Part shown: positions 8,168 to 32,000 of the stretch, piece after piece
Layout: the number at the start of each line of letters is the position of its first letter
Position numbering within the stretch: position 1 is the first letter of the stretch
Assembly (NCBI GenBank): GCA_964351965.1
Contig: CAYGPM010000001.1
Coordinates: forward strand, 605,912-637,911
Length of the DNA stretch: 32,000 nt
Direction of reading: 5' to 3'
DNA from: an uncultured Hyphobacterium sp.
GTDB taxonomy: Bacteria; Bacteroidota; Bacteroidia; Cytophagales; CCMP332
Notes under the pieces: model-generated
Database searches by the model: none
What the model was told of the DNA's origin: nothing
Seen by the model: only the letters and a program-made list of their open reading frames with translations
Made by a program: the position numbers and the translations under genes

Positions 8168-8212
8168 TATATTCTATTCTTTGAAATTCTTTACAAATCA
8201 GGCTGCAATCTA

Positions 8213-12523: not shown

Positions 12524-12527
12524 GGAT

Positions 12528-13295: not shown

Positions 13296-13367
13296 AAATT
13301 CTATATTTTTTGATATTATTAGAAGAGTAATTGTTTGCTAAATTAACAGTCTAAATTAAAATTTGAT

Positions 13368-14456: not shown

Positions 14457-14458
14457 TT

Positions 14459-16795: not shown

Positions 16796-16825
16796 AAAAA
16801 AAACATATTTGAACTTCAAATATCA

Positions 16826-16833
16826 TTATTTTT
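16826..16833 (+). promoter_or_regulatory. candidate Bacteroidota sigma-A -7 box (TAnnTTTG) upstream of the giant gene
   Basis: TATTTTTG matches TAnnTTTG exactly and lies about 100 nt upstream of the ATG at 16933. The nearest upstream TTTG (16807-16810) gives a 15-nt spacer, shorter than the usual ~19-21 nt. This is a motif match only. Confidence 0.25.
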
Positions 16834-16932
16834 GGTGATTGAAAGATTACCTTTTGAATAATTGATGTATTAAAGTATGGAATGTGTAGATGTGTGTTGG
16901 TCAGAGAAAACATCTCTTTACTTAGAAACTAT

Positions 16933-17004
16933 ATGCTAAAAAGGCTTTACTTACTTTTTTTATTAGTTGTTGGAATATCTGTTGGGCAGGCGGTTTATGG
17001 GCAG
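16933..17004 (+). other. Sec signal peptide of the giant protein
   Basis: MLKRLYLLFLLVVGISVGQAVYGQ has a basic n-region (KR), a hydrophobic core and a small-residue cleavage region. The exact cleavage site is not determinable by eye. Confidence 0.7.
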
Positions 17005-20000
17005 TGTTCACTTCTTTCAGGAAATACAACCGAGGATTTTCAAACATCTGGAGTTTGTGGACCAACGACGGTAACTTGGACAATTACTTATGATTTTATT
17101 GCACCTGTTGATCCTAGTTTAACATATATTCGGTTTAATTGGAACGACCCAGGTACAAATAGAACAACTCTTTTAGCCACACCTTCGGCAGGAAACACAA
17201 AATTTACAGCTACTGCTTCATTTACCTATCCAGTAGGTGGAAATTGTATATATGAACCAATAGTAGTTCTAAGTTATGATCAGGACATGGATGGAAATTT
17301 GAATAATAGTACGTGCTTTTCATCTGCAATTCAAAAAACAGTTTCTTCTTGGCAGGATGACAATTCCAATGGAGGTATTTTAGCCATAAACCCTTTGAAT
17401 CAACCAGTATGTTATGAAGATTCTACTGTTGCTTTTCAGTTTCAAGATGCAACATTTCCGAACTGTGATGTTTCTGTTGAGCCAGACAGGCCAAATCAAT
17501 TAACAAGATGGGTTCAGTTTATTTATGGAACAGGTGCTGGCCCTCACATTCCAAATATTTCTATTGATACTGGTGGGGGAACAGTGATTTTAACTGATGC
17601 AGTAGGAAACCTAACTGCAGCAGCTCCCTTTGCGGGCCCGATTATTGAAATTCCACCCATAGTTTTACAAGCGAACCTTAATGAGTTAACATATCCAATT
17701 GACCATCCGGTCGCAGGAGTTGGAAACATAGGTGATGTTTTTGAAATTACACTACGGAATTGGAATACATGTAACCCTTATGACACATTACTATTTGATG
17801 CTTTACCTCCAACCGATCCTGTAAATGGAGACTTTCCTTCAATTACAACTACTGCACAACTAGAAATAATCGGCCCAACAGTCCCTACCGCTGGTCCAGA
17901 CCAAGGGGTGTGTGGTAATTCAACAAATTTAGCTGGAAATGTTATCGCCAATGGCGTCGGTCAATGGAATCAAATAGGTGGAACTCTTGGAGGTATTAAT
18001 ATTACGAACCCGATTAATCCAACCACTGCTGTAAACGTTGTTGGTTCAAATTTTGGCACTTATTTACTTGAATGGAGCTCTACCTTGGGAGCGTGTGCTT
18101 CCGGAAGAGATACTGTTGAAATTACTTTTTTCGAGCCACCTTCAGCATCAAATGCCGGGCCGCCACAAACTATATGCGGAAATTCCACGACTTTGGCAGG
18201 TAATAATCCTGCTGTTGGAACGGGAGAATGGTTTTTTGTAAGTGGTCCGGCAGGATTCACAATTTCCAACCCATTAAGCAGAACTTCTGCATTTTCCTCA
18301 ACAGCCTTTGGTACTTATGTTTTAGAATGGAGAATTGAAAACGGGGTATGCCCTGATGAAGTGGACCAGGTTACAATTGTTTTTGAAGAGGCGGCCAATG
18401 CTGCTGATGCCGGACTAGATGATACCACTGCCTGCAATTTCTTGTCATATACTTTGCAAGGAAATGCAGCAACTACACCTGGGACTACAGGTACCTGGTC
18501 ATTGGTGAATGGACCTGGGACAATTGTAAGTTTTGCTCCTAATGCAAACGATCCAAATGCAGTTGTTACATTTTCGAATTACACAACCGGAACACAGAGA
18601 TATCGATTGAGATGGAGAATTTCATCTGGGACGGGAATCTGTCCAAATGAAGATGACTTTGTAAACATTAGAGCATTTGAAACACCCACAACAGCTACCA
18701 CAGGAGGTCCTATTACCCTTTGCGGTTTGACTACTACATTAAATGGTAATGCAGCGGCTGTGGGCCAAGGAACTTGGTCACAAACGAGTGGTCCCGGCAC
18801 AAGTGTATTCGTCAATGAAAATAACCCTACAACCGATGTGACTGTAAGCGTTGCAGGTACTTATGATTTTGAATGGTCGATTGAAAATGGAAATTGTCCT
18901 CCCTCAACTGCAACAACGACTGTAACATTTGCTCCACCTCCTACAACACCTGACGCAGGTGCTGATGATTCAGTTTGTGCCGTTGCGACTTATAATCTTT
19001 CCGGTAACACTATTACTTTAGGAACCGGTACCTGGCAACAAATTGGTGGCCCTGCCATTGTTGGTGGGTTTACTCCGAATGCAAATGATCCAAATGCACA
19101 ATTTACTTTTTCAACAGAAGGTATTTATATTTTTGAATGGAGCTCTTTCCTTAATGCTTCATGCCCTACTTTAAGAGATACTGTTGAAATTACCTTATTT
19201 AACTCTCCTACAAATGCGGTGGTTGATTTACCAAACCCAATCACAACTTGTGCTTTGAACAATATTCCAATTAGCGCCAACACTGGTGCTAATGTGATTA
19301 CAAGTGGATTTGGAAGATGGTTTCAATCTTCAGGTCCAGCAACGCTAACAATAACAGACTCCTTAGATAATACAACGACAGTTACAGCTCCTGTATCAGG
19401 CGTTTACACTATAACTTGGGAAGTTTCGAACGGCCCATGTTCTCCTCCATCTACAGATGTTTTGACTTTAAATCTTTCTTCACCAAGCCCATCCATCCCT
19501 GGAGCTGATGATACAGTTTGTGCTGATAATTATACACTAAGTGCTAATACTCCTGCAATTGGAACCGGCGCATGGTCTGTTGGAACGCAACCTCCCGGTG
19601 GTACATTCACCATATTACCTGCCGGAGACCCGAATGCTACATTTACAATTACAAATGGTATTTATGGTGCTTATACTTTGATTTGGACAATCTCAAATCC
19701 CGGCTGTCCTGATGAGGTAGATAGCTTAACAATTAGATTAGATGAAAACCCAAGCCCGGCAAGCGTTATTCCTGATTTTCAAATATGTGCGGATACCGCT
19801 ACTTTGGGAGCTGTAACACCAACAGTGGGAAGTGGTCAATGGCAGCTAATTTCCGGAGCCGGTCCTGTAAGTTTCAATCCAAATTCAGCTAATCCGAATG
19901 CAGTTGTTACTATACCTCCGGTTTCAAACACAGCTGTGTATGATTTTGAATGGACTACATCAAATGGCGTTTGTCCGGATTTATCTGATGTTCTTCAAGT

Positions 20001-23000
20001 TACGTTTCATGAAATTTCAACAACGCCTGCTGCAGGTGGAGATTTTGAAGTTTGTAATACCTCTACAAATTTGGCAGGAAATGCTATTACAGTAGGTACA
20101 GGACAGTGGAACCCATTACCTTTATTAAGCACAGGTCCTATTACCATAACAACACCAAGTTCGCCAACGACTAATGTCACTATCCCTGGTTTTGTAAATG
20201 ATTCCGATACCTTCTTCCTTGAATGGACGTCTCAAAATGGCAATTGCGTCACGCTTAGAGATACTGTTAGAGTAATTTTCCATGACGACCCAACTGTTTC
20301 AGCTGCGGGTTCTGATATTGATATCTGTGCCGATACTGCACAATTAAATGCAAATATTCCGGTGGTAGGAAATGGACAATGGATTATTGCTTCAGGTTCT
20401 GCAACATTAGATAATAACACTGATCCTACTACTATTGTTAGAGCTAATCCGTTTGGAGGCGATTCATCGATTGTAGTTTTAACTTGGAGAATTAGCAATG
20501 GCAATTGTGCACCATCTAACAATAATGTTCAGGTCGTATTCTATAAAGATCCTACAGTAGCAGCTGCCGGCGCTGATGATTCTGTTTGTGCTTTAACTTA
20601 TACTTTAGATGGAAATTTTGATGCAATCGGAAAGGGAGATTGGAATCAAGTCTCCGGACCGGGAACTTCTGCATTTGTAAATCAAACACTGTTTAATACT
20701 GATGTAACGGTTACACAATACGGAACTTATTTATTTGAATGGACCAATGCGAATGGCGCTTGTCAAACCACAAGAGATACTGTTCAAATCAGATTTGATG
20801 AGTTCCCTTCATCAGCTTTTGCTGGAGTAGATGACACAGTTTGTGATGTCACTACAATATTAGCTGGTAATAATCCTGCAGTAGGAAATGGTGTTTGGAC
20901 TGTTACTTCTGCACCTTCCGGAACTGCAGTGGCTACTTTTGTTGATAGTTCTTTATTTAATACAAGTGTTACAGTAAACGAGGTTGGAGCATACACTTTC
21001 CAATGGACTATTTCAAATGGTACCTGTGCAGACTCAAGTGATCAAGTGATAATCATATTTGCATCTTCAAATTCAAATACAGGAATCGCCGGGGATACCT
21101 CACTTTGTGTGAACGAGAATAATAAAGTATATACTGTACCATTTGTTGCGGGAACGACTTACGAATGGTTTATACCTGCTGGTATAACTGTACAGTTTGG
21201 AGGAGGAATAAATGACAATTTTGTAGTCCTTACCTACCCAACTGCCGGACCATTTGAATTAAAAGTATTACCAACAAACAGTTTTGGTTGTGCTTCAGAT
21301 ACTCAAACTACTGATGTTGTTGTTTATGACTTTCCAACGAGAGACGCCGGGCCTGACTGGGCAATATGTAGCGGTGATACAGCATTTTTGGGTGGAACTC
21401 CTACAGCTACAGGAGGTTCAGGATTTTATAATTATTCTTGGTCGCCGACTAGCGGATTGGACGATGCAAGCATTGCTAATCCAATAGCAACACCGATCTT
21501 CTCTAGAACATATTTCTTAACTGTTACTGATTCGCTTGCGGGCTGTGCTTCTATTATCGATACGGTCAATGTCACTGTTAATCCTAGTCCATCTTCTAAT
21601 TTGCTTGGACTTACACCTTTTATTTGTGAGGAGGACACAGGAATTTTACAAATATTCTTCAATACAGGTACAGGACCGTTTTCCGTAGGAATAAGCAACG
21701 GTGTTGATACCACCATTTATCCTAGCTTGACTACAGGAGATAGTATTCTTGTAACGCCGGATTCTACTCTTACCTATCGCGTTGTTTATTTACTTGACTC
21801 TGCTACCCTGTGTACAGGAACATCATTTTCAGGAGCTCCAATTATTAATGTAAGACCACTTCCAAATGCAGTTTTGACCAGTCTTGATACTGTCATTTGC
21901 GAAGGCGATGCGGCTAATCTTAACTTAAATATTTCCGGACCTACTCCACAAATTTATACGGTAGAATATGCCATAAATGGGAGAGATACAACGATAGTCA
22001 ATCTTTCAGGATCATCAACAGTTATTACAGTTTTCCCAGACAGCTCTTCAGAATATACTTTGATTTCCGTAACGGATAATTTTAGAGGCTGCCGTGTTGA
22101 TGCACCTTCGGTGAGATTTACGGACAGTGTATTTATTCAAGTTGATTCATTACCTAGAGCAAATCTGGTAGGTGCCGATACAATTTGCGTTGGAGATTCT
22201 GCTGCGTTAGTTGTGAATTTACCAACCGGAGACGGGCCATTTGATTTAACAATCCAAGGATTGGGCGTCGTAAATAATTATAATAGTGGTGATACCATTT
22301 GGGTAAAACCAACAAGTACCAGAAACTATATAATTACTCAGGCTGCTGATACAAATGGATGTACTACAACATCGACTACACTATTAACTGGAAATGCTCT
22401 TATAGTTGTAAATCCTCTTCCTGTAGCAAACCTAATTGGAACAAATACAATTTGTATTGGCGATAGTACACCACTTCAAATAAATGTTACCACAGGAACT
22501 AGTCCATTTGAAGTTGTATTAAGCAATGGAGATACTATTAATCCATATAATAATGGAGATCAGTATTTTGTGAGCCCATTAGTTACAACTACATATTCTT
22601 TGGTTTCAGTTCTTGACACAAATGGCTGTTATACTTCAGCACCTTCATCCAGTTTAACGGGAACTCCACAAGTTACTGTTAATCCTTTGCCTACTGCTCA
22701 GGTAGCTTCAGATGACACAATATGTTTTGGAGATAATGTCATTCTCACCTTCAGTTTTACAGGAGCAGCTCCTTATACTTTTACCTTCAGAGATAACTCA
22801 AGAAATGTCGATAGCACTTTGACAACTACTGGTGCTTTGACCTCAAGAAATGTAACGGTGAGCCCGGATACAACAACCCTTTATACCTTAGTAAGTGTTC
22901 AGGGAGCGAATGGATGTATTGACAGCATCAATAATCCAAATAGCCCAACCTTCGGAGATACCGTAGAAATTGTAGTCGACAGTTTACCGGTAGCCACAAT

Positions 23001-26000
23001 CGTAGCAGATCTTCCAACAGATACGATTTGCAATGGAGACTTGGCTTATTTATTTGTGAATGTATCTACGGGTCCAGGTCCTTATACGATTACAGTCAAT
23101 AATGGCGTAGGAACGATCAACAATTACAACAGCGGAGATACCATCACAGTATCACCATCAGTAACTACAGAATATCAGATCACAAGTTTATTGGATCAAA
23201 ATGGATGTAGCGTGAGCTTCGGTCATCCGAATATCAATGACACAGCAAGAATTGTTGTTAATCCATTACCGGTTGCGAACTTAACAGGAACGGCGACGAT
23301 CTGTCTTGGCGATACCACACCTTTAAGTGTAGCTATTGCTCCTGGAACGGGACCATTTAGTGTAGTTATAAATGATGGAACTACTAATGATACTATTAAT
23401 AGCTATGTAAGCGGAACCAATATTCCGGTAGCCCCAATTGTAACAACGACCTATAGTTTGGTTTCTGTTCTGGATAGCTTCGGATGTTATACGACTATTC
23501 CAAGTGCGAACTTAACGGGTACACCTCAGGTAACTGTTAACCCATTACCAACAGCACAAATCACACAGGATGATACAATCTGTTTCGGAGATAATGTAAC
23601 ACTGAACTTCAGCTTTACAGGAACAGCTCCATTCATAGTTATTTACAAAGACAATAGCACAGGCATAAATGATACAGTTACTACAACTGGATTATCAACA
23701 TCTGCAACAGCAGTAGTAAGTCCTGACACAACAACGCTTTACAGTTTAGTAAGTGTGCAAGGTGCTAATGGTTGTATTGATAGCATTAACAATCCTATTA
23801 ATCCAACTTTCGGAGATACGGTTGAAATCGTAGTAGACAGTTTACCGGTAGCAACGATTGTAGCAGATCTTCCAACAGATACGATTTGCAATGGAGACTT
23901 GGCTTATTTATTTGTGAATGTATCTACGGGTCCAGGTCCTTATACGATTACAGTCAATAATGGCGTAGGAACGATCAACAATTACAACAGCGGAGATACC
24001 ATCACAGTATCACCATCAGTAACTACAGAATATCAGATCACAAGTTTATTGGATCAAAATGGATGTAGCGTGAGCTTCGGTCATCCGAATATCAATGACA
24101 CAGCAAGAATTGTTGTTAATCCATTACCGGTTGCGAACTTAACAGGAACGGCGACGATCTGTCTTGGCGATACCACACCTTTAAGTGTAGCTATTGCTCC
24201 TGGAACGGGACCATTTAGTGTAGTTATAAATGATGGAACTACTAATGATACTATTAATAGCTATGTAAGCGGAACCAATATTCCGGTAGCCCCAATTGTA
24301 ACAACGACCTATAGTTTGGTTTCTGTTCTGGATAGCTTCGGATGTTATACGACTATTCCAAGTGCGAACTTAACGGGTACACCTCAGGTAACTGTTAACC
24401 CATTACCAACAGCACAAATCACACAGGATGATACAATCTGTTTCGGAGATAATGTAACACTGAACTTCAGCTTTACAGGAACAGCTCCATTCATAGCTAT
24501 TTACAAAGACAATACAACAGGCATAAATGATACAGTAACTACAACTGGATTATCAACATCTGCAACGGCAGTAGTAAGTCCTGATACAACGACGCTTTAC
24601 AGTCTAGTAAGTGTGCAAGGTGCTAACGGTTGTATCGATAGTGTCAATAATCCTATTAATATCACTTTCGGAGATACAGTTGAAATTGTAGTCGACAGTT
24701 TACCTGTAGCCACAATCGTAGCAGATCTTCCAACAGATACGATTTGTAATGGAGACTTGGCTTATTTATTTGTGAATGTATCTACGGGTCCTGGTCCTTA
24801 TACCATTACAGTCAATAATGGCGTAGGAACGATCAACAATTACAACAGCGGAGATACCATCACAGTATCACCATCAGTAACTACAGAATATCAGATCACA
24901 AGTTTATTGGATCAAAATGGATGTAGCGTGAGCTTCGGTCATCCGAATATCAATGACACAGCAAGAATTGTTGTTAATCCATTACCGGTTGCGAACTTAA
25001 CAGGAACGGCGACGATCTGTCTTGGCGATACCACACCTTTAAGTGTAGCTATTGCTCCTGGAACGGGACCATTTAGTGTAGTTATAAATGATGGAACTAC
25101 TAATGATACTATTAATAGCTATGTAAGCGGAACCAATATTCCGGTAGCCCCAATTGTAACAACGACCTATAGTTTGGTTTCTGTTCTGGATAGCTTCGGA
25201 TGTTATACGACTATTCCAAGTGCGAACTTAACGGGTACACCTCAGGTAACTGTTAACCCATTACCAACAGCACAAATCACACAGGATGATACAATCTGTT
25301 TCGGAGATAATGTAACACTGAACTTCAGCTTTACAGGAACAGCTCCATTCATAGTTATTTACAAAGACAATAGCACAGGCATAAATGATACAGTTACTAC
25401 AACTGGATTATCAACATCTGCAACAGCAGTAGTAAGTCCTGACACAACAACGCTTTACAGTTTAGTAAGTGTGCAAGGTGCTAATGGTTGTATTGATAGC
25501 ATTAACAATCCTATTAATCCAACTTTCGGAGATACGGTTGAAATCGTAGTAGACAGTTTACCGGTAGCAACGATTGTAGCAGATCTTCCAACAGACACAA
25601 TTTGTAATGGGGATTTGGCTTATCTATTTGTGAATGTTTCAACAGGCCCCGGACCTTATGATATAACCATAAATAATGGAGTTGGTACAATAAACAATTA
25701 TGTCAGCGGAGATACAATTACAGTATCGCCATCCGTAACTACTGCATATCAAATCACTAGCTTATTAGATCAAAATGGATGTAGCGTGAGCTTCGGTCAT
25801 CCGAATATTGATGATACAGCAACTATAGTTGTTAATCCATTACCAAGTGTTACTTTAAGCATCGATACTAACAGAATTTGTTTTGGTGATACGACTAACC
25901 TTCGAGTTGCACTTAATGTAGGAACAGGACCGCTAGAGTTTGTAGTGAACCCGAATGTAAATGACACAATCAGAAACTTTGATCCTTTAACTGATTTTGT

Positions 26001-29000
26001 ACCGGTTTCACCAAATGCGACTACTACTTATAGTATAAACTATGTCATTGACGCAAATGGATGCCAATCTGTAGCGCCAAGTGCCAATATTACAGGTAAT
26101 CCTCAGTTGAATATCAACCCACTACCTACTTTGCAAATTTCTGATTCGACTACAATTTGTTTAGAGGATCAAGTTGTCTTGACATTTAGCATGTCCGGCT
26201 CAGCACCTTATACATTTACGTATCGCGACGAATTAACTGGAACAGATTCTACTATTACTACTGTCGGTGGGCTAACTACGAGAACAGTTACAGAATTTCC
26301 ATTGGACACAACCATGTATACTTTAGTAAGCATCACCGATGCGCAAGGTTGTACTGATAGTATTAATAACGCTCCAATAAATCCAAACTTTGGAGACACT
26401 ATTGTAGTGAATGTTAACCCTCTTCCAATTACAACTTTAACAGTAGTTGAGCCTACTGATACAATTTGCTTTGGTGACAATGCTTTATTTATCGTAGATG
26501 TTACCAATCTTGGAGATGCTCCCGGTCCTTATAATTTAGAGATTAGCGGTGGGGTAGGTATAATAAATAATTATACCAGCGGCGACACAATTGTGTTTGC
26601 ACCGAATACCACAAGCAATTACAATATTGTTTCATTGACAGATGCAAATGGTTGTTCAGTTCTGGCCGGTCATCCAAATTTACCTGATACTGTGCGAGTT
26701 GTTGTTAAACCACTTCCTGTAGTTGAGTTGCTATTGGACGATAATGAAATTTGTCTTGGAGATTCTGCAAGATTGTACTGGAGAGTACCAGTTGGAAGTC
26801 CTCGATTTGACTTTGTTCTAAACACTGATCCAAATGATACCATCCAATCTGTTACTGTTGGAGATTCTATTTGGGTAAGCCCAACGGATACTACTACCTA
26901 TAGTATTATTTACTTCAGCGATTCATTTGGTTGTACTGTTACAGCACCAAGCTCAAATATTTCAGGAACACCAACGCTAATTGTAAATCCTTTACCGGAT
27001 GCAAGCATTTCAATAAATAAGGATACGGTTTGTTTTGGAGAGTTGACAACAATTACTTTCAACTTAACCGGACCGAATAGTCCTTATACATATCAAATTG
27101 ATACTACCGGAAATATTCTAACAGGATTTAATACTATTGATGGTTCTACAAGATCATTTGTACTTGGTATTGGAGATCATGATTTTAAATTAATAGAAGC
27201 AATTGATGCCAAGGGTTGTGTGGCTAATATCGCTCCTGCCGATTCCTTGGTTGAAGTATTTGTTCATGAATTACCAACCGCCTCAATTAGTGGAGACACT
27301 AGCGTATGTGATCTTGAACCATTCGTATTGAATTTCAACTTAACCGGAAATGATCCGCTGAATGTTTATTTCACAGATGGTACAAATAATTATGTGAGAC
27401 AATTAACTGCACCAACCGATACTGCAATAATTTCATTACCGGCTTCAGTGAATCCTTACTTCTTCCAGATTGACTCTGTTGTGGATAGCAATTCACCTGA
27501 AAGCTGTAGAGCTACAGATATCACAGGATTAGTAACTGTTCAGGTATTTGACAGACCACAAATTGAGATTAACTCCTTTGACACGACAATCTGTGATGGT
27601 GACCAAGCAATATTATCATTTGATATTTCAGGAGGAAGAGCGCCATTTGAAGTAGATCTTTCCGTGGACGGAACAACAGTCGATACAACTTTATTAAATA
27701 TCGCTGATGGATCTATTTATCTGGTAAGGCCAAATGACACCACTACTTACACAATTTTAGAAATAAGAGAATCTGTTACAACAGAAGCATGTGTTGGTAC
27801 AATTGGAATAAAATCGAGTTTCACTGTAAATGTAAATCCATTGCCAACGGCTAACTTGACTCTTGTGGGTCAAGATACCAAGTGTTTTGGTGATAGTATT
27901 ACAGTCAACATCCAATTCACCGGACAAGCACCTTATAATTTATCATTATTGACAAATTATGCAGGTCCTATTACTATGAACGGAATTCAAACAAACGATA
28001 CAACATTTAACGTATCGAGCAGTTTCCCTGGTTTTGGTAATACAATTTCTCTATTTACTTTAAGTGATGGTCATACACCGACTTGTTCTGTAATTCAAGG
28101 TGATCCACAACTTACGGGAGGTGTAACATTCAACCTTAATGATTTACCTACGGCCAGTTTAAATCCGCTTGGATTGACATCTATTTGTAGAGGTGATTCA
28201 GCAAATCTATTAGTTGTAGTCTCACAAGGTGATTTACCATATACTGTATATATTTCTGACGGAAGTACAAACTATGTAGACTCTCTACTTATTACCACGG
28301 GTAATACGGGTACTATTGCTGTAGGACCTCAAAATACAAGTACTTTCCAAATTGACTCTGTAAGAGACGGTAGCTTACCAGATAACTGTAGAGCACAAAG
28401 TATAAATGGTTCGGTACAAATTTCTGTTGAAGATAGACCTACAGTAAGTATTTCAGGAATAGATACAATTTGCTCCTTTCAAAACAGTCAATTCCAGATT
28501 CAAACTGGCGGAACCGGTCCTTGGTTAGTAACTTATACTAATGGTACAGATACTCTACCAACATTTGTATCGAGTAGCCCGCAAACGGTAACGTTATTTA
28601 ATCCACCGGTTGGCTTGAATGTCTATTCAATCGTTTCTATTTCAGATAATGGAACAGTGCCTTCTTGTCCTGCAGACTCTTTGACTTCAGATACAGCATA
28701 TGTATTTGTTAACGACTTACCGACGGCAAATCTTACAGGTGATACCACGATTTGTAATGGTGATCCTTTACCGGTTTATCTAAACTTTGGTGTAACCAGT
28801 GGACCATTTGATGTTACCATTACCGATGGAACCAATAACTATAATTTCACAGGATTAAGTCAACAGGATACAGTATTGATTCCATATCCGGGACCAGGGT
28901 TCTTCATATACAGGTTCGCAACAGTAAGAGATGATAATACGAATTGTGAGCCTTTAGTGACCACCGGACAAGCGATAGTTCAGGTAAGAGAAATACCAAC

Positions 29001-31737
29001 AGTTACACTTTCTGTTGTTGGAAACAATATCATATGCGGAAAAGACACTTTAGGTAAATTCTTGCAATTTAATTTTGATGTACCAAATATCTATGATGTC
29101 ATTCTGCAAAAGGGTGGTGTAGATGTGGATACATTATTCGGAATAGGAAACGGAACCATACTTCAGGCTCCAGACTTGCAGGTTGGTAATAATGTTTATA
29201 CCGTTGCTTCTGCTACTTATTCTCTTGATCCGAAATGTGGTCTCAATGTGGTTAACAATGCGAATATTTTTGTCAACGCAGACCCAACCATTACCATTCA
29301 GGATAATGATACAATTTGCGTAGGCAACACTGTTACTCTTACCCTCAATGCTACAGGCTTACCAAATTATACAGTACAGTATATTGGAAATGCTGGAATA
29401 CAACCGACTACTTCAGCTAATAATACTTGGACAATCACTGCAAGTCCTACAACAACTACCTCGTTTAGAGTATTGAGTATTACTGATGGTAATGGTTGTT
29501 CTACAAATAACATCCTTCCTTCTGATTCTACAGAGGCTACTATTGTTGTGAATCAATTGCCAACGGCATCATTAAAAGTTGATGGATTCTTCTCGAATAG
29601 TGTAACATTCTGTGAGGAAGATACTATAGCTCTTCAGTATAATCTTACTGGTAATGGGCCATTTGATGTTATTGTGAATGATAATCTCGGTAATTCCTAT
29701 GTAAGAAATAATGTGAGTAATCTGGATACATTGTTATTAATTAATCCAATTCCTCCTGTAGGTTCTACAACTCAGTATTTCCTAACTCAGGTAAATGATA
29801 ATAACAATCCGGCATGCGCCCCAACAAGTTTGGGTAACCCGGTAAATATTACTGTTGATTCACTGCCTACTGCAAATATTTCAGGCAACACCACTATTTG
29901 TAGCGGTAACACTGCAACGTTGACATTTACTTTCACCGGTACAGGTCCTTGGACGTTCAGATATTTTGATGGCACACTCGTTTCAGCAACACAAGCATCT
30001 AATGTTTCTACGTATACGTTGAATGTATTACCAAGTGTAACTACGACTTATACAATATTTGATGTGGTAGATCAAGGTACGACGAATCAATGTGCGATAG
30101 ATTCGACGCATCCAAATGTAACGGGAAGCGTGACAGTTGTCGTTGAGCCACCTGTAATTGCGGATTTCACTTTTAACTCTGACGATGCTTGTGGCGATCC
30201 TACGGTAACATTTACGGATCAAACAACGCCGGCTGCCATTTATTCATATGATTGGGATTTTGGAGATGGAAATAATTCAACAATTCAAAGCCCAACACAT
30301 CAATATGCAAATACAGGCTTGAATGTTATAGATTTCACAGTCAATATGGTGGTTACCTCACCTCTTGGGTGTGTTGATTCAATTGATAAAGTAGTTCAGG
30401 TAAAACCAGATATTACAGCGGTCGCTACTGCGGATGTTCAGGTGGGTTGTTCGCCTTTAGAAGTTAACTTCTCATCAAGCACGAATGCTTCGAGTTTCCA
30501 ATGGTTCTATAATAATAATGGCACACTGGAATCCTTAAGTCCAATTGCAGCTGTAAGAGAAACTTTTGAGAATAATGGGCTAACCACTCAAATATTCAAT
30601 GTTACTTTAGTCACCACAAATCAGTTTGCTTGTACTGATACATTAATAATACCGATAACGGTGCATCCAAAGCCTCAACCTACGTTTACGGCTAATCCGG
30701 TTCAACAGAACTGGCCACCAAGCCCTGTTACATTTACAAATGGTACGCCTAGTTTGAATGACAATACTTATTTCTGGAACTTTGGAGATACTGCAAATGG
30801 AACAAGCACACAAGTTAGCCCGACATACGATTTTGGTACATTCGGTAATTTCACTGTGACTTTAATTGCAACCACACAAAATGGTTGTATAGATTCTACA
30901 ACGAGATTAGTGACTATTTTCCCAAGTCTGCCTGTAGCTGATTTTGTAGGCACAACTGAAGGCTGTGTTCCGTTTGAGTTTACATTTAGGAATGCTTCTC
31001 AATTTGGATTAAGTTATAAATGGGAATTCAGTGATGGCAGCGAGTACTTCAGTGAAAATGTCACAAAAACATTCTTTGATCCGGGAGTATATGATGTCAA
31101 ACTTATTACAACAGGCATCAATGGATTTAAAGATTCAATCGAACGCTTTGCAGTTGTAACAGGATATCCAAATCCAAGTGCCAACTTCTTCTCTAGAGAT
31201 ACGGTATTTGTAGGATTGAATGAGCTCAACTTCTCAAATGAATCAAGAAATGCTTCTGAGTATTTCTGGGACTTTGGAGATGGAACAACTTCTGACGAAA
31301 GATCACCAACGAAAAACTATAGATTCGAAGGGCTATATGATGTAACTATGGTTGCATTCAATGTAGTTAACGATAGTATCTCGTGTACAGATACTGCTTC
31401 GAAAGTAATTTACGTATTACCTGTTGGAGATATCATTGTGCCGAATGCCTTTACGCCTGGTGAAGGTGGTCCGACCGGTGGTTCAGTAAATCCTTTTGAC
31501 AGATTCAATAATACCGTCTTCTATCCAGTAATTAGAAAAGAATTTGTAGCATTGAAATTTGAAGTATTTAACCGTTGGGGAGAGCCTATATTCCAGTCTA
31601 ATACAGTAAATGTAGGATGGGATGGCTATGTAAACGGAACGCCGGCCCCTCAAGGTGTATATATTTACAGAGTACAGGTTGAGTTTGCTGATGGTACTAA
31701 AGAAACCAAAGTTGGAGATGTTACTCTGCTTAGATAA
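16933..31737 (+). CDS. giant (~4,934 aa) T9SS-secreted cell-surface repeat protein / putative SprB-like adhesin with type-B CTD
   Basis: A single 14.8-kb open frame in AT-rich DNA. The Met at 16933 gives the signal peptide MLKRLYLLFLLVVGISVGQAVYGQ; the ORF-track start at 16882 adds 17 non-signal residues. Modular repeat architecture, detailed in the sub-features below. The C-terminus matches the gliding-motility-associated / T9SS type-B sorting domain. Confidence 0.92.
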   Translation: MLKRLYLLFLLVVGISVGQAVYGQCSLLSGNTTEDFQTSGVCGPTTVTWTITYDFIAPVDPSLTYIRFNWNDPGTNRTTLLATPSAGNTKFTATASFTYPVGGNCIYEPIVVLSYDQDMDGNLNNSTCFSSAIQKTVSSWQDDNSNGGILAINPLNQPVCYEDSTVAFQFQDATFPNCDVSVEPDRPNQLTRWVQFIYGTGAGPHIPNISIDTGGGTVILTDAVGNLTAAAPFAGPIIEIPPIVLQANLNELTYPIDHPVAGVGNIGDVFEITLRNWNTCNPYDTLLFDALPPTDPVNGDFPSITTTAQLEIIGPTVPTAGPDQGVCGNSTNLAGNVIANGVGQWNQIGGTLGGINITNPINPTTAVNVVGSNFGTYLLEWSSTLGACASGRDTVEITFFEPPSASNAGPPQTICGNSTTLAGNNPAVGTGEWFFVSGPAGFTISNPLSRTSAFSSTAFGTYVLEWRIENGVCPDEVDQVTIVFEEAANAADAGLDDTTACNFLSYTLQGNAATTPGTTGTWSLVNGPGTIVSFAPNANDPNAVVTFSNYTTGTQRYRLRWRISSGTGICPNEDDFVNIRAFETPTTATTGGPITLCGLTTTLNGNAAAVGQGTWSQTSGPGTSVFVNENNPTTDVTVSVAGTYDFEWSIENGNCPPSTATTTVTFAPPPTTPDAGADDSVCAVATYNLSGNTITLGTGTWQQIGGPAIVGGFTPNANDPNAQFTFSTEGIYIFEWSSFLNASCPTLRDTVEITLFNSPTNAVVDLPNPITTCALNNIPISANTGANVITSGFGRWFQSSGPATLTITDSLDNTTTVTAPVSGVYTITWEVSNGPCSPPSTDVLTLNLSSPSPSIPGADDTVCADNYTLSANTPAIGTGAWSVGTQPPGGTFTILPAGDPNATFTITNGIYGAYTLIWTISNPGCPDEVDSLTIRLDENPSPASVIPDFQICADTATLGAVTPTVGSGQWQLISGAGPVSFNPNSANPNAVVTIPPVSNTAVYDFEWTTSNGVCPDLSDVLQVTFHEISTTPAAGGDFEVCNTSTNLAGNAITVGTGQWNPLPLLSTGPITITTPSSPTTNVTIPGFVNDSDTFFLEWTSQNGNCVTLRDTVRVIFHDDPTVSAAGSDIDICADTAQLNANIPVVGNGQWIIASGSATLDNNTDPTTIVRANPFGGDSSIVVLTWRISNGNCAPSNNNVQVVFYKDPTVAAAGADDSVCALTYTLDGNFDAIGKGDWNQVSGPGTSAFVNQTLFNTDVTVTQYGTYLFEWTNANGACQTTRDTVQIRFDEFPSSAFAGVDDTVCDVTTILAGNNPAVGNGVWTVTSAPSGTAVATFVDSSLFNTSVTVNEVGAYTFQWTISNGTCADSSDQVIIIFASSNSNTGIAGDTSLCVNENNKVYTVPFVAGTTYEWFIPAGITVQFGGGINDNFVVLTYPTAGPFELKVLPTNSFGCASDTQTTDVVVYDFPTRDAGPDWAICSGDTAFLGGTPTATGGSGFYNYSWSPTSGLDDASIANPIATPIFSRTYFLTVTDSLAGCASIIDTVNVTVNPSPSSNLLGLTPFICEEDTGILQIFFNTGTGPFSVGISNGVDTTIYPSLTTGDSILVTPDSTLTYRVVYLLDSATLCTGTSFSGAPIINVRPLPNAVLTSLDTVICEGDAANLNLNISGPTPQIYTVEYAINGRDTTIVNLSGSSTVITVFPDSSSEYTLISVTDNFRGCRVDAPSVRFTDSVFIQVDSLPRANLVGADTICVGDSAALVVNLPTGDGPFDLTIQGLGVVNNYNSGDTIWVKPTSTRNYIITQAADTNGCTTTSTTLLTGNALIVVNPLPVANLIGTNTICIGDSTPLQINVTTGTSPFEVVLSNGDTINPYNNGDQYFVSPLVTTTYSLVSVLDTNGCYTSAPSSSLTGTPQVTVNPLPTAQVASDDTICFGDNVILTFSFTGAAPYTFTFRDNSRNVDSTLTTTGALTSRNVTVSPDTTTLYTLVSVQGANGCIDSINNPNSPTFGDTVEIVVDSLPVATIVADLPTDTICNGDLAYLFVNVSTGPGPYTITVNNGVGTINNYNSGDTITVSPSVTTEYQITSLLDQNGCSVSFGHPNINDTARIVVNPLPVANLTGTATICLGDTTPLSVAIAPGTGPFSVVINDGTTNDTINSYVSGTNIPVAPIVTTTYSLVSVLDSFGCYTTIPSANLTGTPQVTVNPLPTAQITQDDTICFGDNVTLNFSFTGTAPFIVIYKDNSTGINDTVTTTGLSTSATAVVSPDTTTLYSLVSVQGANGCIDSINNPINPTFGDTVEIVVDSLPVATIVADLPTDTICNGDLAYLFVNVSTGPGPYTITVNNGVGTINNYNSGDTITVSPSVTTEYQITSLLDQNGCSVSFGHPNINDTARIVVNPLPVANLTGTATICLGDTTPLSVAIAPGTGPFSVVINDGTTNDTINSYVSGTNIPVAPIVTTTYSLVSVLDSFGCYTTIPSANLTGTPQVTVNPLPTAQITQDDTICFGDNVTLNFSFTGTAPFIAIYKDNTTGINDTVTTTGLSTSATAVVSPDTTTLYSLVSVQGANGCIDSVNNPINITFGDTVEIVVDSLPVATIVADLPTDTICNGDLAYLFVNVSTGPGPYTITVNNGVGTINNYNSGDTITVSPSVTTEYQITSLLDQNGCSVSFGHPNINDTARIVVNPLPVANLTGTATICLGDTTPLSVAIAPGTGPFSVVINDGTTNDTINSYVSGTNIPVAPIVTTTYSLVSVLDSFGCYTTIPSANLTGTPQVTVNPLPTAQITQDDTICFGDNVTLNFSFTGTAPFIVIYKDNSTGINDTVTTTGLSTSATAVVSPDTTTLYSLVSVQGANGCIDSINNPINPTFGDTVEIVVDSLPVATIVADLPTDTICNGDLAYLFVNVSTGPGPYDITINNGVGTINNYVSGDTITVSPSVTTAYQITSLLDQNGCSVSFGHPNIDDTATIVVNPLPSVTLSIDTNRICFGDTTNLRVALNVGTGPLEFVVNPNVNDTIRNFDPLTDFVPVSPNATTTYSINYVIDANGCQSVAPSANITGNPQLNINPLPTLQISDSTTICLEDQVVLTFSMSGSAPYTFTYRDELTGTDSTITTVGGLTTRTVTEFPLDTTMYTLVSITDAQGCTDSINNAPINPNFGDTIVVNVNPLPITTLTVVEPTDTICFGDNALFIVDVTNLGDAPGPYNLEISGGVGIINNYTSGDTIVFAPNTTSNYNIVSLTDANGCSVLAGHPNLPDTVRVVVKPLPVVELLLDDNEICLGDSARLYWRVPVGSPRFDFVLNTDPNDTIQSVTVGDSIWVSPTDTTTYSIIYFSDSFGCTVTAPSSNISGTPTLIVNPLPDASISINKDTVCFGELTTITFNLTGPNSPYTYQIDTTGNILTGFNTIDGSTRSFVLGIGDHDFKLIEAIDAKGCVANIAPADSLVEVFVHELPTASISGDTSVCDLEPFVLNFNLTGNDPLNVYFTDGTNNYVRQLTAPTDTAIISLPASVNPYFFQIDSVVDSNSPESCRATDITGLVTVQVFDRPQIEINSFDTTICDGDQAILSFDISGGRAPFEVDLSVDGTTVDTTLLNIADGSIYLVRPNDTTTYTILEIRESVTTEACVGTIGIKSSFTVNVNPLPTANLTLVGQDTKCFGDSITVNIQFTGQAPYNLSLLTNYAGPITMNGIQTNDTTFNVSSSFPGFGNTISLFTLSDGHTPTCSVIQGDPQLTGGVTFNLNDLPTASLNPLGLTSICRGDSANLLVVVSQGDLPYTVYISDGSTNYVDSLLITTGNTGTIAVGPQNTSTFQIDSVRDGSLPDNCRAQSINGSVQISVEDRPTVSISGIDTICSFQNSQFQIQTGGTGPWLVTYTNGTDTLPTFVSSSPQTVTLFNPPVGLNVYSIVSISDNGTVPSCPADSLTSDTAYVFVNDLPTANLTGDTTICNGDPLPVYLNFGVTSGPFDVTITDGTNNYNFTGLSQQDTVLIPYPGPGFFIYRFATVRDDNTNCEPLVTTGQAIVQVREIPTVTLSVVGNNIICGKDTLGKFLQFNFDVPNIYDVILQKGGVDVDTLFGIGNGTILQAPDLQVGNNVYTVASATYSLDPKCGLNVVNNANIFVNADPTITIQDNDTICVGNTVTLTLNATGLPNYTVQYIGNAGIQPTTSANNTWTITASPTTTTSFRVLSITDGNGCSTNNILPSDSTEATIVVNQLPTASLKVDGFFSNSVTFCEEDTIALQYNLTGNGPFDVIVNDNLGNSYVRNNVSNLDTLLLINPIPPVGSTTQYFLTQVNDNNNPACAPTSLGNPVNITVDSLPTANISGNTTICSGNTATLTFTFTGTGPWTFRYFDGTLVSATQASNVSTYTLNVLPSVTTTYTIFDVVDQGTTNQCAIDSTHPNVTGSVTVVVEPPVIADFTFNSDDACGDPTVTFTDQTTPAAIYSYDWDFGDGNNSTIQSPTHQYANTGLNVIDFTVNMVVTSPLGCVDSIDKVVQVKPDITAVATADVQVGCSPLEVNFSSSTNASSFQWFYNNNGTLESLSPIAAVRETFENNGLTTQIFNVTLVTTNQFACTDTLIIPITVHPKPQPTFTANPVQQNWPPSPVTFTNGTPSLNDNTYFWNFGDTANGTSTQVSPTYDFGTFGNFTVTLIATTQNGCIDSTTRLVTIFPSLPVADFVGTTEGCVPFEFTFRNASQFGLSYKWEFSDGSEYFSENVTKTFFDPGVYDVKLITTGINGFKDSIERFAVVTGYPNPSANFFSRDTVFVGLNELNFSNESRNASEYFWDFGDGTTSDERSPTKNYRFEGLYDVTMVAFNVVNDSISCTDTASKVIYVLPVGDIIVPNAFTPGEGGPTGGSVNPFDRFNNTVFYPVIRKEFVALKFEVFNRWGEPIFQSNTVNVGWDGYVNGTPAPQGVYIYRVQVEFADGTKETKVGDVTLLR
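17875..21069 (+). repeat. 12 tandem class-A domains (~85-95 aa each)
   Basis: Recurrent pattern AGxDxxVC..(L/Y)xLxGN.P..GxGxW....GP......P.N.P...V.....GxYxFxW(T/S)I.NG.C....DxVxIxF. Counted by eye on the translation. The copies are diverged at DNA level. Confidence 0.8.
21070..21336 (+). other. singleton PKD-like domain
   Basis: GDTSLCVNENNKVYTVPFVAGTTYEWFIPAGITVQ...FELKVLPTNSFGCASDTQTTDVVV. This fits the C..x..YxV....YxWxxPxG....GCxS pattern common in T9SS cargo. Confidence 0.55.
21337..21579 (+). other. singleton Ig-like domain with GGxGxYxYxWxP motif
   Basis: AGPDWAICSGDTAFLGGTPTATGGSGFYNYSWSPTSGLDDASIANPIATPIFSRTYFLTVTDSLAGCASIIDTVNVTV. This domain type is frequent in gliding-motility CTD proteins. 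Confidence 0.55.
21580..30150 (+). repeat. 30 tandem class-B domains (~92-102 aa each)
   Basis: Recurrent pattern (P/S/D)LPxAxLxG.DTIC.GDxxxLxxxx.G.GP(F/Y)xxxx..G......(Y/F).SGDxIxVxPxxTTxYxLxSVxDxNGCxxx......G...(V/I)xVN. Counted by eye: B1 starts at 21580 and B30 ends at 30150. Confidence 0.8.
22981..25554 (+). repeat. three near-identical, in-frame 858-bp tandem units (each 286 aa, three class-B domains)
   Basis: The anchor AGTTTACC(G/T)GTAGC recurs at 22981, 23839, 24697 and 25555, an exact 858-nt spacing. Units 1 and 2 show no differences over 23002-23638. Units 1 and 3 differ at 4 synonymous sites, all near the 5' end. Confidence 0.9.
30151..31422 (+). repeat. five PKD domains
   Basis: ADFTF...YDWDFGDGNNS...H.Y...G...V, with further copies carrying FWNFGD, YKWEFSDG and YFWDFGDGTTS. 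The second copy is degenerate (FQWFYNNNG). Confidence 0.8.
31423..31734 (+). other. T9SS type-B C-terminal sorting domain (gliding-motility-associated CTD, CHU_C-like)
   Basis: VGDIIVPNAFTPGEGG...N..F...........FEVFNRWGEPIFQS......WDGY.NG..APQGVYIYRVQVEFADG.....GDVTLLR. This has the type-B hallmarks PNAFTP, FNRWGE, WDG and GVY.Y. The type-A KxxxK-like ending is absent. Confidence 0.85.
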
Positions 31738-31748
31738 GAATTATTAAT

Positions 31749-32000
31749 ATGAGAAAAAGAATATATCATATTGCCTTTTTAATCTTGATCTTAAGTGGTT
31801 TTACTAAAGCCCAGGATTATCAATTCACGCAGTTTTACGCGGCACCATTATATTTAAATCCGGCATTTGCGGGATCTTCAGAATGGGCTAGAGCCAGTGT
31901 GCTTTACAGATCACAATGGCCTGCGGCTGCTGCAAAGTTTACCACGATGTATGCCAGCTTTGATCAGAATTTACCTGGGATAAGAAGTGGCGCGGGAATT
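31749..32000 (+). CDS. PorP/SprF-family type IX secretion system membrane protein (5' part, runs off the window)
   Basis: Not in the ORF track because no stop lies within the window. ATG at 31749, 11 nt after the giant gene's stop. Translates as MRKRIYHIAFLILILSGFTKAQDYQFTQFYAAPLYLNPAFAGSSEWARASVLYRSQWPAAAAKF..., i.e. a signal peptide followed by the PorP/SprF N-terminal signature Q(F/Y)....P..(L/V)NPA(F/Y)AG ... YR.QW. Confidence 0.8.
   Translation, partial: MRKRIYHIAFLILILSGFTKAQDYQFTQFYAAPLYLNPAFAGSSEWARASVLYRSQWPAAAAKFTTMYASFDQNLPGIRSGAGI

What the first reader, a model, noticed from the sequence alone, without database searches (positions are those of the whole stretch)
22981..25595. 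Near-perfect 858-bp in-frame tandem units with a hidden 1,716-bp (two-unit) periodicity
Seen in sequence: unit boundaries fall at 22981, 23839, 24697 and 25555, exactly 858 nt (286 codons) apart. Unit 1 versus unit 2 has 3 synonymous differences in the first 21 nt and none over 23002-23638 (637 nt). The last ~200 nt then carry about 20 differences, including 4 amino-acid changes (V>A, S>T, I>V, P>I). Unit 1 versus unit 3 has only 4 differences (22989, 23031, 23076, 23088), all synonymous. The two are then identical over 23089-23879 versus 24805-25595 (791 nt), which runs across the next unit boundary. The junction sequences alternate. GAAATTGTAGTCGACAGTTTACC(G/T)GTAGCCACAATCGTA occurs at the junctions entering units 1 and 3. 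GAAATCGTAGTAGACAGTTTACCGGTAGCAACGATTGTA occurs at those entering units 2 and 4. Inference: the latest expansion duplicated a two-unit 1,716-bp block, or gene conversion acts in that register. Such long perfect repeats are substrates for RecA-mediated expansion and contraction, which would vary the length of a surface fibre between strains. They also exceed short-read length, so the assembled copy number may be wrong.
Basis: partly seen in the sequence, partly recalled or inferred. Interest (0 to 1): 0.7.

Follow-up and report, generated by a model that had tools for sequence, protein, structure and literature searches.

The report
Three-domain repeat array in giant adhesin
The near-perfect 858-base repeats are real: each encodes three antibody-like domains in the stalk of a giant secreted surface protein of an uncultured Cytophagales bacterium, and recombination keeps the copies alike while their number differs between related species (3, 4 and 1), a known way for bacteria to vary surface-fibre length.

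Summary
The array lies in one 4,934-aa gene (16933-31737). The protein has a signal peptide, about 30 Ig-like domains, PKD domains and a type IX secretion type-B C-terminal domain. A porP/sprF-like anchor gene follows 11 nt downstream. Each 858-nt unit encodes three different Ig-like domains (A-B-C, 38-40% identical to each other).

Two related Cytophagales MAGs carry the orthologous gene. All three share diverged flanking units. The middle unit is present 3 times here, 4 times (99.7-100% identical) in a complete-chromosome MAG, and once in the third. Copies cluster within each genome, not across genomes, so they expanded or were homogenised separately in each lineage.

A plain 1,716-bp block duplication is not supported, because lag-1716 identity covers only about 914 nt. 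The alternation reduces to one diverged ~308-nt patch across the U2|U3 junction (tail dS ≈ 0.35). Independent short-read assemblies break exactly at both array edges, so unit number and order here remain unverified.

Verdict: a real, ordinary new member of the variable-length "Periscope"-type surface proteins.

The parts
16933..31737 (+). Giant surface-protein gene (4,934 aa from M18; the ORF opens at ATG 16882)
   Evidence: ORF list and translation. Orthologues L004 and L005 have in-frame stops before M18, and the Logan gene call starts at the position equivalent to 16933. Pfam finds Pom152-type Ig-like domains, PKD and CHU_C.
16933..17004 (+). Probable Sec signal peptide MLKRLYLLFLLVVGISVGQAVYGQ
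   Evidence: Read directly from the translation. No predictor was run.
21577..30141 (+). Stalk of about 30 tandem ~95-aa Ig-like domains, each with two conserved Cys
   Evidence: An HMM built from the unit's domains finds 29 back-to-back domains over aa 1566-4420.
22141..22974 (+). U0: diverged A-B-C unit (834 nt) to the left of the array, orthologous in all three species
   Evidence: 62% DNA identity to U1-U3, and 75% and 72% to U0 of L004 and L005.
22975..23832 (+).
23833..24690 (+). U2, near-perfect unit whose last ~200 nt are the divergent tail
24691..25548 (+). U3, near-perfect unit (4 synonymous differences from U1)
23089..23638 (+). 550-nt core identical in U1, U2 and U3 (other copies at 23947-24496 and 24805-25354)
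   Evidence: Difference positions and repeated 31-mer intervals.
24497..24804 (+). Divergent ~308-nt patch across the U2|U3 junction. It carries 27 differences from the U1|U2 and U3|U4 junction type, which accounts for all variation inside the array except the three head sites at 22995/22998/23001, where U1 matches U3.
   Evidence: Variable-column table. The tail is 90% identical to the other tails and equally distant from L004. Tail dS = 0.35 and dN = 0.04.
25549..26412 (+). U4: diverged A-B-C unit (864 nt) to the right. Its first 46 nt are identical to U2 and its A domain is 94% aa identical to the amplified unit's A domain.
   Evidence: It is orthologous to L004 U5 and L005 U2.
26413..27261 (+). 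U5: an older, more diverged A-B-C triplet
   Evidence: Domain typing gives A 53%, B 45%, C 32%.
30142..31500 (+). Four PKD domains (approximate limits)
   Evidence: Pfam PKD_4 and PKD, 4 stretches each.
31501..31722 (+). T9SS type-B C-terminal sorting domain (CHU_C)
   Evidence: Pfam PF13585 scores 36.5 bits against a cut-off of 27. NCBIfam TIGR04131 scores 33.8 against a cut-off of 35.
31749..32000 (+). 5' part of a porP/sprF-family gene, starting 11 nt after the giant gene's stop and running off the window
   Evidence: Logan contigs L013 and L014 are 100% identical to window 25779-32000 and carry the whole 347-aa gene. TIGR03519 scores 236.7 bits against a cut-off of 90.55.

Best explanation

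The unit of repetition is a 286-aa cassette of three different Ig-like domains (A-B-C). An old series of such cassettes (U0, Um, Ut, U5) is shared by related species. In this lineage the middle cassette Um is present three times.

The copies are kept almost identical by unequal homologous exchange and gene conversion between misaligned cassettes. These events have sharp tract boundaries:
- a 550-nt core identical in all three copies;
- a 791-nt tract shared at lag 1716;
- one ~308-nt patch across the U2|U3 junction that escaped the latest homogenisation, or was imported from a diverged allele.

The same cassette was expanded or homogenised separately in a sister species (4 copies) and is single in a third. 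Cassette number therefore changes over evolutionary time in 858-nt (about three Ig domains) steps.

Inferred consequence: the stalk length changes, and with it the reach of the variable N-terminal part of the protein from the outer membrane, where the C-terminal domain is held by the adjacent PorP/SprF-like protein.

Because each cassette holds three dissimilar domains, identical domains are never neighbours. This would avoid the misfolding cost of identical adjacent domains (inference).

The apparent two-unit periodicity is a by-product of this mosaic, not a separate mechanism.
For: Shown:
- The repeat numbers and tracts are as stated.
- All 23 U1/U2 differences avoid the core, P about 3e-14.
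- The cassette is an A-B-C triplet. A, B and C are 38-40% identical to each other, and U0, U4 and U5 have the same order.
- The AlphaFold model of one cassette has mean pLDDT 89.5 and is all-beta. Its best PDB matches are tandem-Ig rods: the 1.5-MDa Marinomonas ice-binding adhesin 5irb and titin Ig triplets. Sequence matches are to Pom152 Ig-like domains.
- Surface export is indicated by CHU_C/type-B CTD and a PorP/SprF gene 11 nt downstream. PorP-like proteins anchor their cognate type-B cargo (PMC9143113).

Comparative evidence:
- The orthologous genes lie next to the same M28 peptidase gene in two Cytophagales MAGs.
- U0 and Ut are orthologous across species (68-75% DNA identity).
- Um copies are 97-99.5% identical within this genome and 99.7-100% within L004, but only 76% between the two.
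- Copy numbers are 3, 4 and 1.
- Between species the synonymous sites of Um are saturated (pS 0.78) while the protein is 92% identical. The cassette is therefore under purifying selection.
- The U2 tail differs from the U1 and U3 tails at dS 0.35, against dS 0 in the core. Both tails are equally far from L004. So at least two copies, or two alleles, are much older than the last homogenisation.
- Homogenised tracts spill into the flanking units in both species.

The class of variable-length repeat stalks and its recombination mechanism are described in PMC8201768 and PMC9704523.
Against: - No within-species copy-number variation could be examined. The variation seen is between species that are about 23% diverged in the neighbouring protein.
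- The single copy in L005 comes from a short-read (k141) assembly and could in principle be a collapse. However, that contig runs unbroken through U0-Um-Ut.
- The sequencing technology behind the window and behind OZ254083.1 is unknown to me.
- Surface location, rod shape and any effect of length on function are inferred. pTM is only 0.68 and inter-domain geometry was not assessed.
- Independent amplification and long-standing concerted evolution cannot be fully separated for L004.
Confidence: 0.8

Rival explanations
1. One reading: the most recent event was a tandem duplication of a two-unit 1,716-bp block, giving a true two-unit period.
For: - U1 and U3 differ at 4 sites, while U2 differs from either at 23-27 sites.
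- The 791-nt identical tract crosses a unit boundary at lag 1716.
- The two junction types alternate.
Against: - A 1,716-bp tandem duplication predicts 1,716 nt of near-identity at lag 1716. Only about 914 nt are seen (22966-23879). Past 23879 the lag-1716 partner (U4) falls to 77-90% and then about 66%, and on the left U0 vs U2 is 62%.
- There are three near-perfect units, not four.
- U0 is 834 nt, so U0+Um (1,692 nt) cannot be the duplicated block.
- The U0|U1 and U2|U3 junctions share only 65 nt, with one mismatch.
- The sister species' 4-unit array has no two-unit pattern.
- By hand I could not derive the arrangement from a one- or two-unit ancestor with fewer than three exchanges unless a conversion patch is allowed (inference).
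Confidence: 0.1
2. The array is real, but the number or order of units in this assembly is wrong, so the alternation is partly an assembler's choice. The order h1-core-tY | h2-core-tX | h3-core-tY (the window) and the order h1-core-tX | h3-core-tY | h2-core-tY contain exactly the same k-mers at the same multiplicities. Three is also the smallest unit number that uses every observed junction.
For: - Independent Logan short-read assemblies of the same organism are 100% identical to the window on both sides. They stop at 23019 and restart at 25779, exactly where unique 31-mers end and resume.
- The core shared by all three units is 550 nt, longer than a typical read.
- The full-length protein is not on record in any assembly of the collection.
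Against: - The window is contiguous across the array, which suggests long reads or pairs that bridged it.
- A related species assembled as a single 3.5-Mb chromosome has an even longer array of the same kind, so such arrays are not artefacts in themselves.
- The break points confirm that the junction variants (for example G/T at 22989/24705) exist in the reads.
Confidence: 0.25
3. Chimeric metagenome assembly: two co-existing strains, each with two units (one with the tX-h3 junction, one with tY-h2), were threaded in series into a three-unit array.
For: The set of junctions in the window could be produced by two 2-unit haplotypes (inference). The organism is known only from metagenomes.
Against: - The flanks are 100% identical over 13.5 kb and 6.2 kb in several samples. 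The population therefore looks clonal, and a strain difference of dS 0.35 confined to 308 nt would itself require recombination.
- The sister species shows multi-copy arrays within one chromosome.
Confidence: 0.05
4. The identity between units is kept for the sake of the protein, for example several identical binding sites or a fixed register along the fibre, rather than for length variation. Copy-number change would then be incidental.
For: Um is the most conserved part of the protein between species: 92% aa identity, against 74% for the N-terminal 1,736 aa, with dN/dS far below 1.
Against: - Selection on the protein does not explain identity at synonymous sites (0 differences in 550 nt, against saturated synonymous divergence between species). 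That needs recombination.
- Copy number differs between species.
- This rival is compatible with the main explanation as an added role.
Confidence: 0.15

Closest known systems
Periscope Proteins (variable-length repeat stalks, e.g. SasG/Aap, Rib, Sgo_0707 SHIRT, Esp, CdrA; PMC8201768, PMC9704523)
   Same: - A single-chain surface protein.
- Tandem repeats longer than 50 residues that are nearly identical at the DNA level.
- Repeats that encode folded beta-sandwich domains.
- Repeat number that differs between relatives, with homologous recombination as the proposed mechanism.
- Short reads that fail to assemble the array.
   Different: - The repeated unit is a three-domain cassette whose domains are only 38-40% identical to each other. 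Identical domains are therefore not adjacent, whereas classic Periscope arrays break the low-adjacent-identity rule. SasG's alternating G5-E unit is the nearest parallel (own knowledge).
- There are only 3-4 copies, embedded in about 30 diverged domains.
- The host is an environmental Cytophagales bacterium with T9SS export and a C-terminal anchor.
- Variation is shown here between species, not between strains.
T9SS type-B CTD cargo with a cognate PorP/SprF-like protein (e.g. Flavobacterium johnsoniae SprB-SprF; PMC9143113)
   Same: - A giant repetitive protein.
- A C-terminal type-B (CHU_C) sorting domain.
- A porP/sprF-family gene immediately downstream.
- No porE-like gene next to it in the 3 kb seen, as for sprB-sprF.
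   Different: No SprB-repeat (PF13573) match appeared at E <= 0.01, so this is not an SprB orthologue. The stalk is built of Pom152-type Ig-like domains. A role in gliding is untested.
Giant RTX-type ice-binding adhesin MpIBP of Marinomonas primoryensis (PDB 5irb) and titin Ig tandems
   Same: These are the best structural matches to the modelled cassette: strings of Ig-like beta-sandwiches acting as an extender. From my own knowledge, MpIBP also has a long run of near-identical repeats.
   Different: Only the fold is similar (12-15% sequence identity). MpIBP uses a different secretion route (type I) and is anchored at its N-terminus. Titin super-repeats are eukaryotic and are not homogenised at the DNA level.
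Concerted evolution of tandem gene or domain arrays by unequal crossing-over and gene conversion (a general mechanism; own knowledge)
   Same: Copies cluster by genome rather than by position. Identity tracts are sharply bounded. Homogenisation spills into the flanking diverged units. The outermost units escape it.
   Different: Nothing unusual. This is a textbook-like case inside a single coding sequence.

Membership tests
Periscope Proteins | Tandem repeats of more than 50 residues with very high identity, at the DNA level too | tested here: met
   There are three 286-aa units. They are 96.9-99.5% identical in DNA, with a 550-nt core identical in all three.
Periscope Proteins | Single-chain protein attached to the cell surface | tested here: met
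   This rests on sequence evidence only: a signal-peptide-like N-terminus, a CHU_C type-B CTD above Pfam's cut-off, and a cognate PorP/SprF gene. There is no experimental localisation.
Periscope Proteins | Repeats fold as independent globular domains that form an elongated rod | tested here: inconclusive
   The AlphaFold model shows three beta-sandwich domains (pLDDT 89.5) and matches tandem-Ig rods. pTM is 0.68, and inter-domain rigidity and anisotropy were not measured.
Periscope Proteins | Repeat number varies between close relatives or within a population | tested here: inconclusive
   Copy numbers are 3, 4 and 1 in three related species. No second genome of the same species spans the array, and the same-species contigs break at its edges.
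T9SS type-B CTD cargo with cognate PorP/SprF | C-terminal type-B sorting domain | tested here: met
   PF13585 CHU_C scores 36.5 bits against a cut-off of 27. TIGR04131 is just under its cut-off, at 33.8 against 35.
T9SS type-B CTD cargo with cognate PorP/SprF | Adjacent porP/sprF-family gene | tested here: met
   A 347-aa ORF starts 11 nt after the stop codon. TIGR03519 scores 236.7 bits against a cut-off of 90.55.
T9SS type-B CTD cargo with cognate PorP/SprF | N-terminal Sec signal peptide | tested here: met
   Read directly: MLKRLYLLFLLVVGISVGQAVYGQ. The start at M18 is supported by the orthologues. No signal-peptide predictor was available.
T9SS type-B CTD cargo with cognate PorP/SprF | T9SS core machinery present in the genome | not testable with these tools
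   Only 32 kb of the genome is available, and no T9SS core genes lie in the window.
SprB gliding adhesin family | SprB repeats (PF13573) making up the body of the protein | tested here: not met
   The Pfam scan at E <= 0.01 lists Pom152-type Ig, PKD and CHU_C only.
Two-unit (1,716-bp) block tandem duplication | Near-identity at lag 1716 across a full 1,716 nt (four units in an ABAB pattern) | tested here: not met
   Lag-1716 near-identity covers about 914 nt. U2 vs U4 is 66% identical and U0 vs U2 is 62%.

The most novel reading that the evidence does not exclude
The three-domain cassette is an evolved design. It would let a Bacteroidota T9SS adhesin carry long, perfectly repeated DNA, and hence a recombination-driven adjustable stalk, without placing identical domains side by side. 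The same cassette position (Um) would be a selected hot spot for length tuning, expanded independently in separate Cytophagales lineages to set how far the fast-evolving N-terminal region projects from the outer membrane.
Probability: 0.25. Interest if true: 0.5.

Novelty: new member of a known kind. Interest (0 to 1): 0.3.

Why it matters
- It extends the variable-length repeat-stalk idea, so far documented mainly in pathogens with long-read genomes, to a giant type IX secretion adhesin of an uncultured environmental Cytophagales lineage.
- It gives a clean natural example of concerted evolution inside one gene, with orthologous flanks and 3, 4 and 1 copies of the same cassette.
- It illustrates a way round the cost of identical neighbouring domains, because the homogenised unit is three dissimilar domains long.
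- Practically, it warns that this gene's length and internal order cannot be trusted in short-read MAGs. Independent assemblies break exactly at the array edges.

Tried and rejected
- Tandem Repeats Finder found nothing, because the period exceeds its 500-nt limit. I used lag-identity scans instead.
- Exact look-ups of the M28 peptidase from its TTG start and of the full-length giant protein from M18 found nothing. Only truncated Logan contigs of the same organism exist.
- Protein database searches with the unit and with the N-terminal region gave no close relative (best 40% and 68% partial), so no full-length orthologue lengths could be collected.
- The metagenome scan found only relatives at 44-46% identity.
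This did not matter for the array, which ends inside the locus.
- I tested whether the divergent U2 tail was copied from another paralogous domain. It was not: its closest relative is the U1/U3 tail at 90%, and all others are 76% or less.
- I asked whether the L005 contig ends in a repeat of itself. There is no shared word of 20 nt or more.
- Literature searches for the run and accession numbers found nothing.
- SprB membership was rejected because no SprB repeats were detected.

Full report
OBSERVATION

The finding is accurate in every number.
- Units starting at 22981, 23839 and 24697 are exactly 858 nt apart.
- U1 vs U2 differ at 23 sites: three at 22995/22998/23001, none across 23002-23638, and 20 in 23639-23835.
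- U1 vs U3 differ at 4 sites (22989, 23031, 23076, 23088). U2 vs U3 differ at 27.
- The U1/U3 differences and the U1/U2 head differences are synonymous. The tail carries the four replacements V>A, S>T, I>V and P>I.
- The 637-nt and 791-nt identical runs come out as repeated 31-mer intervals.
- The two junction 39-mers alternate at 22966, 23824, 24682 and 25540.
- Lags of 858 and 1716 are the only in-frame lags with raised identity in the ORF.
- Near-identity runs from about 22966 to about 25595, with partial identity on both sides.
- TRF missed the array only because its longest period is 500.

WHAT THE SEQUENCE ENCODES

The array lies in a single ORF, 16882-31737. The real start is most likely ATG 16933. 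Both orthologues have stop codons before that methionine, and an independent gene call starts there.

From that start the protein has 4,934 aa and the following parts:
- a signal-peptide-like N-terminus;
- a long repetitive N-terminal half;
- about 30 consecutive ~95-aa Ig-like domains (aa 1566-4420), each with two conserved cysteines;
- four PKD domains;
- a CHU_C / type-B type IX secretion sorting domain (Pfam 36.5 bits against a cut-off of 27; NCBIfam TIGR04131 33.8 against 35).

Eleven nucleotides after the stop, at 31749, a porP/sprF-family gene begins and runs off the window. It is complete in Logan contigs that match the window 100% over 25779-32000 (TIGR03519, 236.7 bits). PorP-like proteins bind and anchor their neighbouring type-B cargo, as SprF does for SprB (PMC9143113). 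This is therefore a giant type IX-secreted surface protein. It is not an SprB orthologue, because no SprB repeats were detected.

ANATOMY OF THE UNIT

Each 858-nt unit encodes three different Ig-like domains, A (94 aa), B (93 aa) and C (99 aa). They are only 38-40% identical to one another.
- The same A-B-C order recurs in the diverged neighbours U0 (22141-22974), U4 (25549-26412) and U5 (26413-27261). The 858-nt repeat is therefore the youngest layer of an old three-domain super-repeat.
- An AlphaFold model of one unit is confident (mean pLDDT 89.5) and all-beta. Its best PDB matches are strings of Ig domains: the extender of the 1.5-MDa Marinomonas ice-binding adhesin and titin triplets.
- By sequence, the only solved relatives are Pom152 Ig-like domains.

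COMPARATIVE EVIDENCE

A scan of GTDB species representatives with the neighbouring M28 peptidase found two Cytophagales MAGs (77% and 76% aa identity) with the same gene order and an orthologous giant gene. The units compare as follows.

| Unit | Window | L004 (OZ254083.1, 3.5-Mb single chromosome) | L005 (MEGAHIT contig) |
|---|---|---|---|
| U0 (left flank) | 1 copy | 1 copy, 75% DNA identity to the window's U0 | 1 copy, 72% |
| Um (middle) | 3 copies, 96.9-99.5% identical to each other | 4 copies, 99.7-100% identical to each other | 1 copy |
| Ut (right flank) | U4 | U5, 71% identical to window U4 | U2, 67.5% |

- Between genomes Um is only 69-76% identical in DNA, so copies group by genome and not by position.
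- Synonymous sites between species are saturated (pS about 0.78), yet Um is 92% identical in protein to L004. That makes it the most conserved stretch of the whole protein; the N-terminal 1,736 aa are 74% identical.
- Hence the cassette is under purifying selection. The within-genome identity at silent sites must come from recombination, either lineage-specific amplification or continuing homogenisation.
- In L004 the homogenised tract runs 84 nt into U0 and 215 nt into U5. In the window, U4's A domain is 94% identical to Um's A domain while its B and C domains are about 50% identical. Conversion tracts are expected to spill over in this way.

THE TWO-UNIT PERIODICITY

The alternation is real in the assembled sequence, but it rests on a single repeat of the pattern. 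All variation among U1-U3 falls into two places:
- three head sites at the left edge of the array (22995/22998/23001), where U1 matches U3;
- one contiguous ~308-nt patch across the U2|U3 junction (24497-24804), with 27 differences from the junction type found at U1|U2 and U3|U4.

The tail part of the patch is 90% identical to the other tails (dS 0.35, dN 0.04), whereas the core has dS 0. Both tail types are equally far (76-77%) from the L004 tail. The patch is therefore an old allele of the same segment. It either escaped the last homogenisation or came in from a diverged relative. It was not copied from another paralogue in the gene.

A simple 1,716-bp block duplication is contradicted:
- It would leave 1,716 nt of lag-1716 identity and four units. 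There are about 914 nt and three units.
- U2 vs U4 is 66% identical and U0 vs U2 is 62%.
- U0 is 834 nt long, so U0+Um cannot be the block.
- The U0|U1 and U2|U3 junctions share only 65 nt, with one mismatch.
- The four-unit array of L004 has three variable sites in an A-B-B'-A pattern, with no two-unit period.

The data show sharply bounded tracts, and the probability that all U1/U2 differences avoid the 637-nt core by chance is about 3e-14.

ASSEMBLY CAVEAT

This could be tested as far as the tools allowed. Logan (k=31) assemblies of several ERR35349xx runs contain the same organism.
- One contig matches window 9515-23019 without a mismatch. It ends at the last 31-mer that is unique before the repeat (22989-23019).
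- From the window's repeated 31-mers I predicted that the next contig should begin at 25779. Looking up the protein fragment 25780-31737 returned contigs from several samples that start exactly there and are identical to the window's end.

The array's edges and junction variants are therefore independently confirmed. Short reads do not resolve its interior.

The window's order (h1-core-tY | h2-core-tX | h3-core-tY) and the alternative order (h1-core-tX | h3-core-tY | h2-core-tY) have identical k-mer content. They differ only in linkage across the 550-nt core that is identical in all three units. The alternative order has no alternation. Three is also the smallest unit number that uses all the junctions. 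I do not know how the window was sequenced, so copy number and order remain unverified.

MECHANISM

Shown:
- the mosaic of identity tracts;
- clustering of copies by genome;
- different copy numbers in related species;
- purifying selection on the cassette;
- the sequence features of a secreted surface protein.

Inferred:
- Misaligned pairing of cassettes during replication or repair gives unequal exchange (plus or minus 858 nt) and gene conversion. For repeats of this length both RecA-dependent and RecA-independent sister-strand routes are known in E. coli (own knowledge). I cannot say which acts here.
- Each step adds or removes three Ig domains from the stalk. This changes how far the variable N-terminal part reaches from the outer membrane, where the C-terminus is held by the PorP/SprF-like protein.
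- Because the cassette contains three dissimilar domains, neighbouring domains stay below about 40% identity. That is the level seen between natural adjacent domains and is thought to limit misfolding (PMC9704523).

COMPARISON WITH KNOWN SYSTEMS, AND NOVELTY

This works like a Periscope Protein (PMC8201768, PMC9704523).
- It meets the repeat and surface-protein criteria.
- Rod shape is only modelled.
- Variation is shown between species, not between strains.
- It differs in having a three-domain cassette, few copies, and T9SS type-B export in an environmental Cytophagales bacterium.

It is a new member of a known kind. The phenomenon itself is well known, so interest is modest.

Noticed in passing
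window 16882-16935: The ORF opens at ATG 16882, but both orthologues have in-frame stops between that position and the methionine at 16933, and an independent gene call starts at 16933. The true start is probably 16933, giving a 4,934-aa protein with a typical signal peptide.
   Followed up: partly
window 31749-32000 (complete in L013 5971-7014): A porP/sprF-family outer-membrane protein gene starts 11 nt after the giant gene's stop and runs off the window. A SpoIIE-domain gene follows, and no porE-like gene is seen within 3 kb.
   Followed up: yes
window 21577-30141: Every one of the ~30 Ig-like domains has exactly two cysteines at conserved positions (about residues 16-19 and 77-85 of each domain). 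This suggests one disulfide per domain.
   Followed up: no
window 23803-23805 vs 24661-24663: The Pro>Ile replacement in U2 changes all three bases of the codon (CCA>ATC). The orthologous residue is Pro in U0 and in both other species.
   Followed up: no
window 25549-25830: Domain A of the flanking unit U4 is 94% aa identical to domain A of the amplified unit, while its B and C domains are about 50% identical. This is partial homogenisation spilling over the array edge. In L004 the spill is 84 nt on the left and 215 nt on the right.
   Followed up: partly
L005 1-80 (JAVJQT010000008.1 contig end): The short-read contig of the third species ends 75 nt into the cassette after Ut, with no internal repeat of 20 nt or more to explain the break. 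A different cassette may be amplified in that species.
   Followed up: partly
window 16933-20000 (aa 18-1000): The N-terminal ~1,000 aa are the least conserved part of the protein between species (55-80% aa identity per 95-aa window), against 84-94% for the stalk. This fits a distal, fast-evolving interaction region. No known adhesive domain was recognised there.
   Followed up: partly
window 1-16819: The upstream genes are ordinary housekeeping genes. By similarity read from the translations and Pfam tags they include a polyprenyl synthase, RNase R, an ABC ATPase, LipB, mannose-6-P isomerase, Pgi, a Na+ symporter, LplA, YaaA, an RNase D-like protein, a TANGO2-family protein and an M28 peptidase. 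Nothing suggests a mobile element around the giant gene.
   Followed up: no
protein databases: The cassette and the N-terminal region have no relative above about 46% identity (or 68% over a fragment) in 5.8 billion proteins or in JGI metagenomes. This lineage is very poorly sampled, and giant orthologues appear to be absent from the protein collection.
   Followed up: partly
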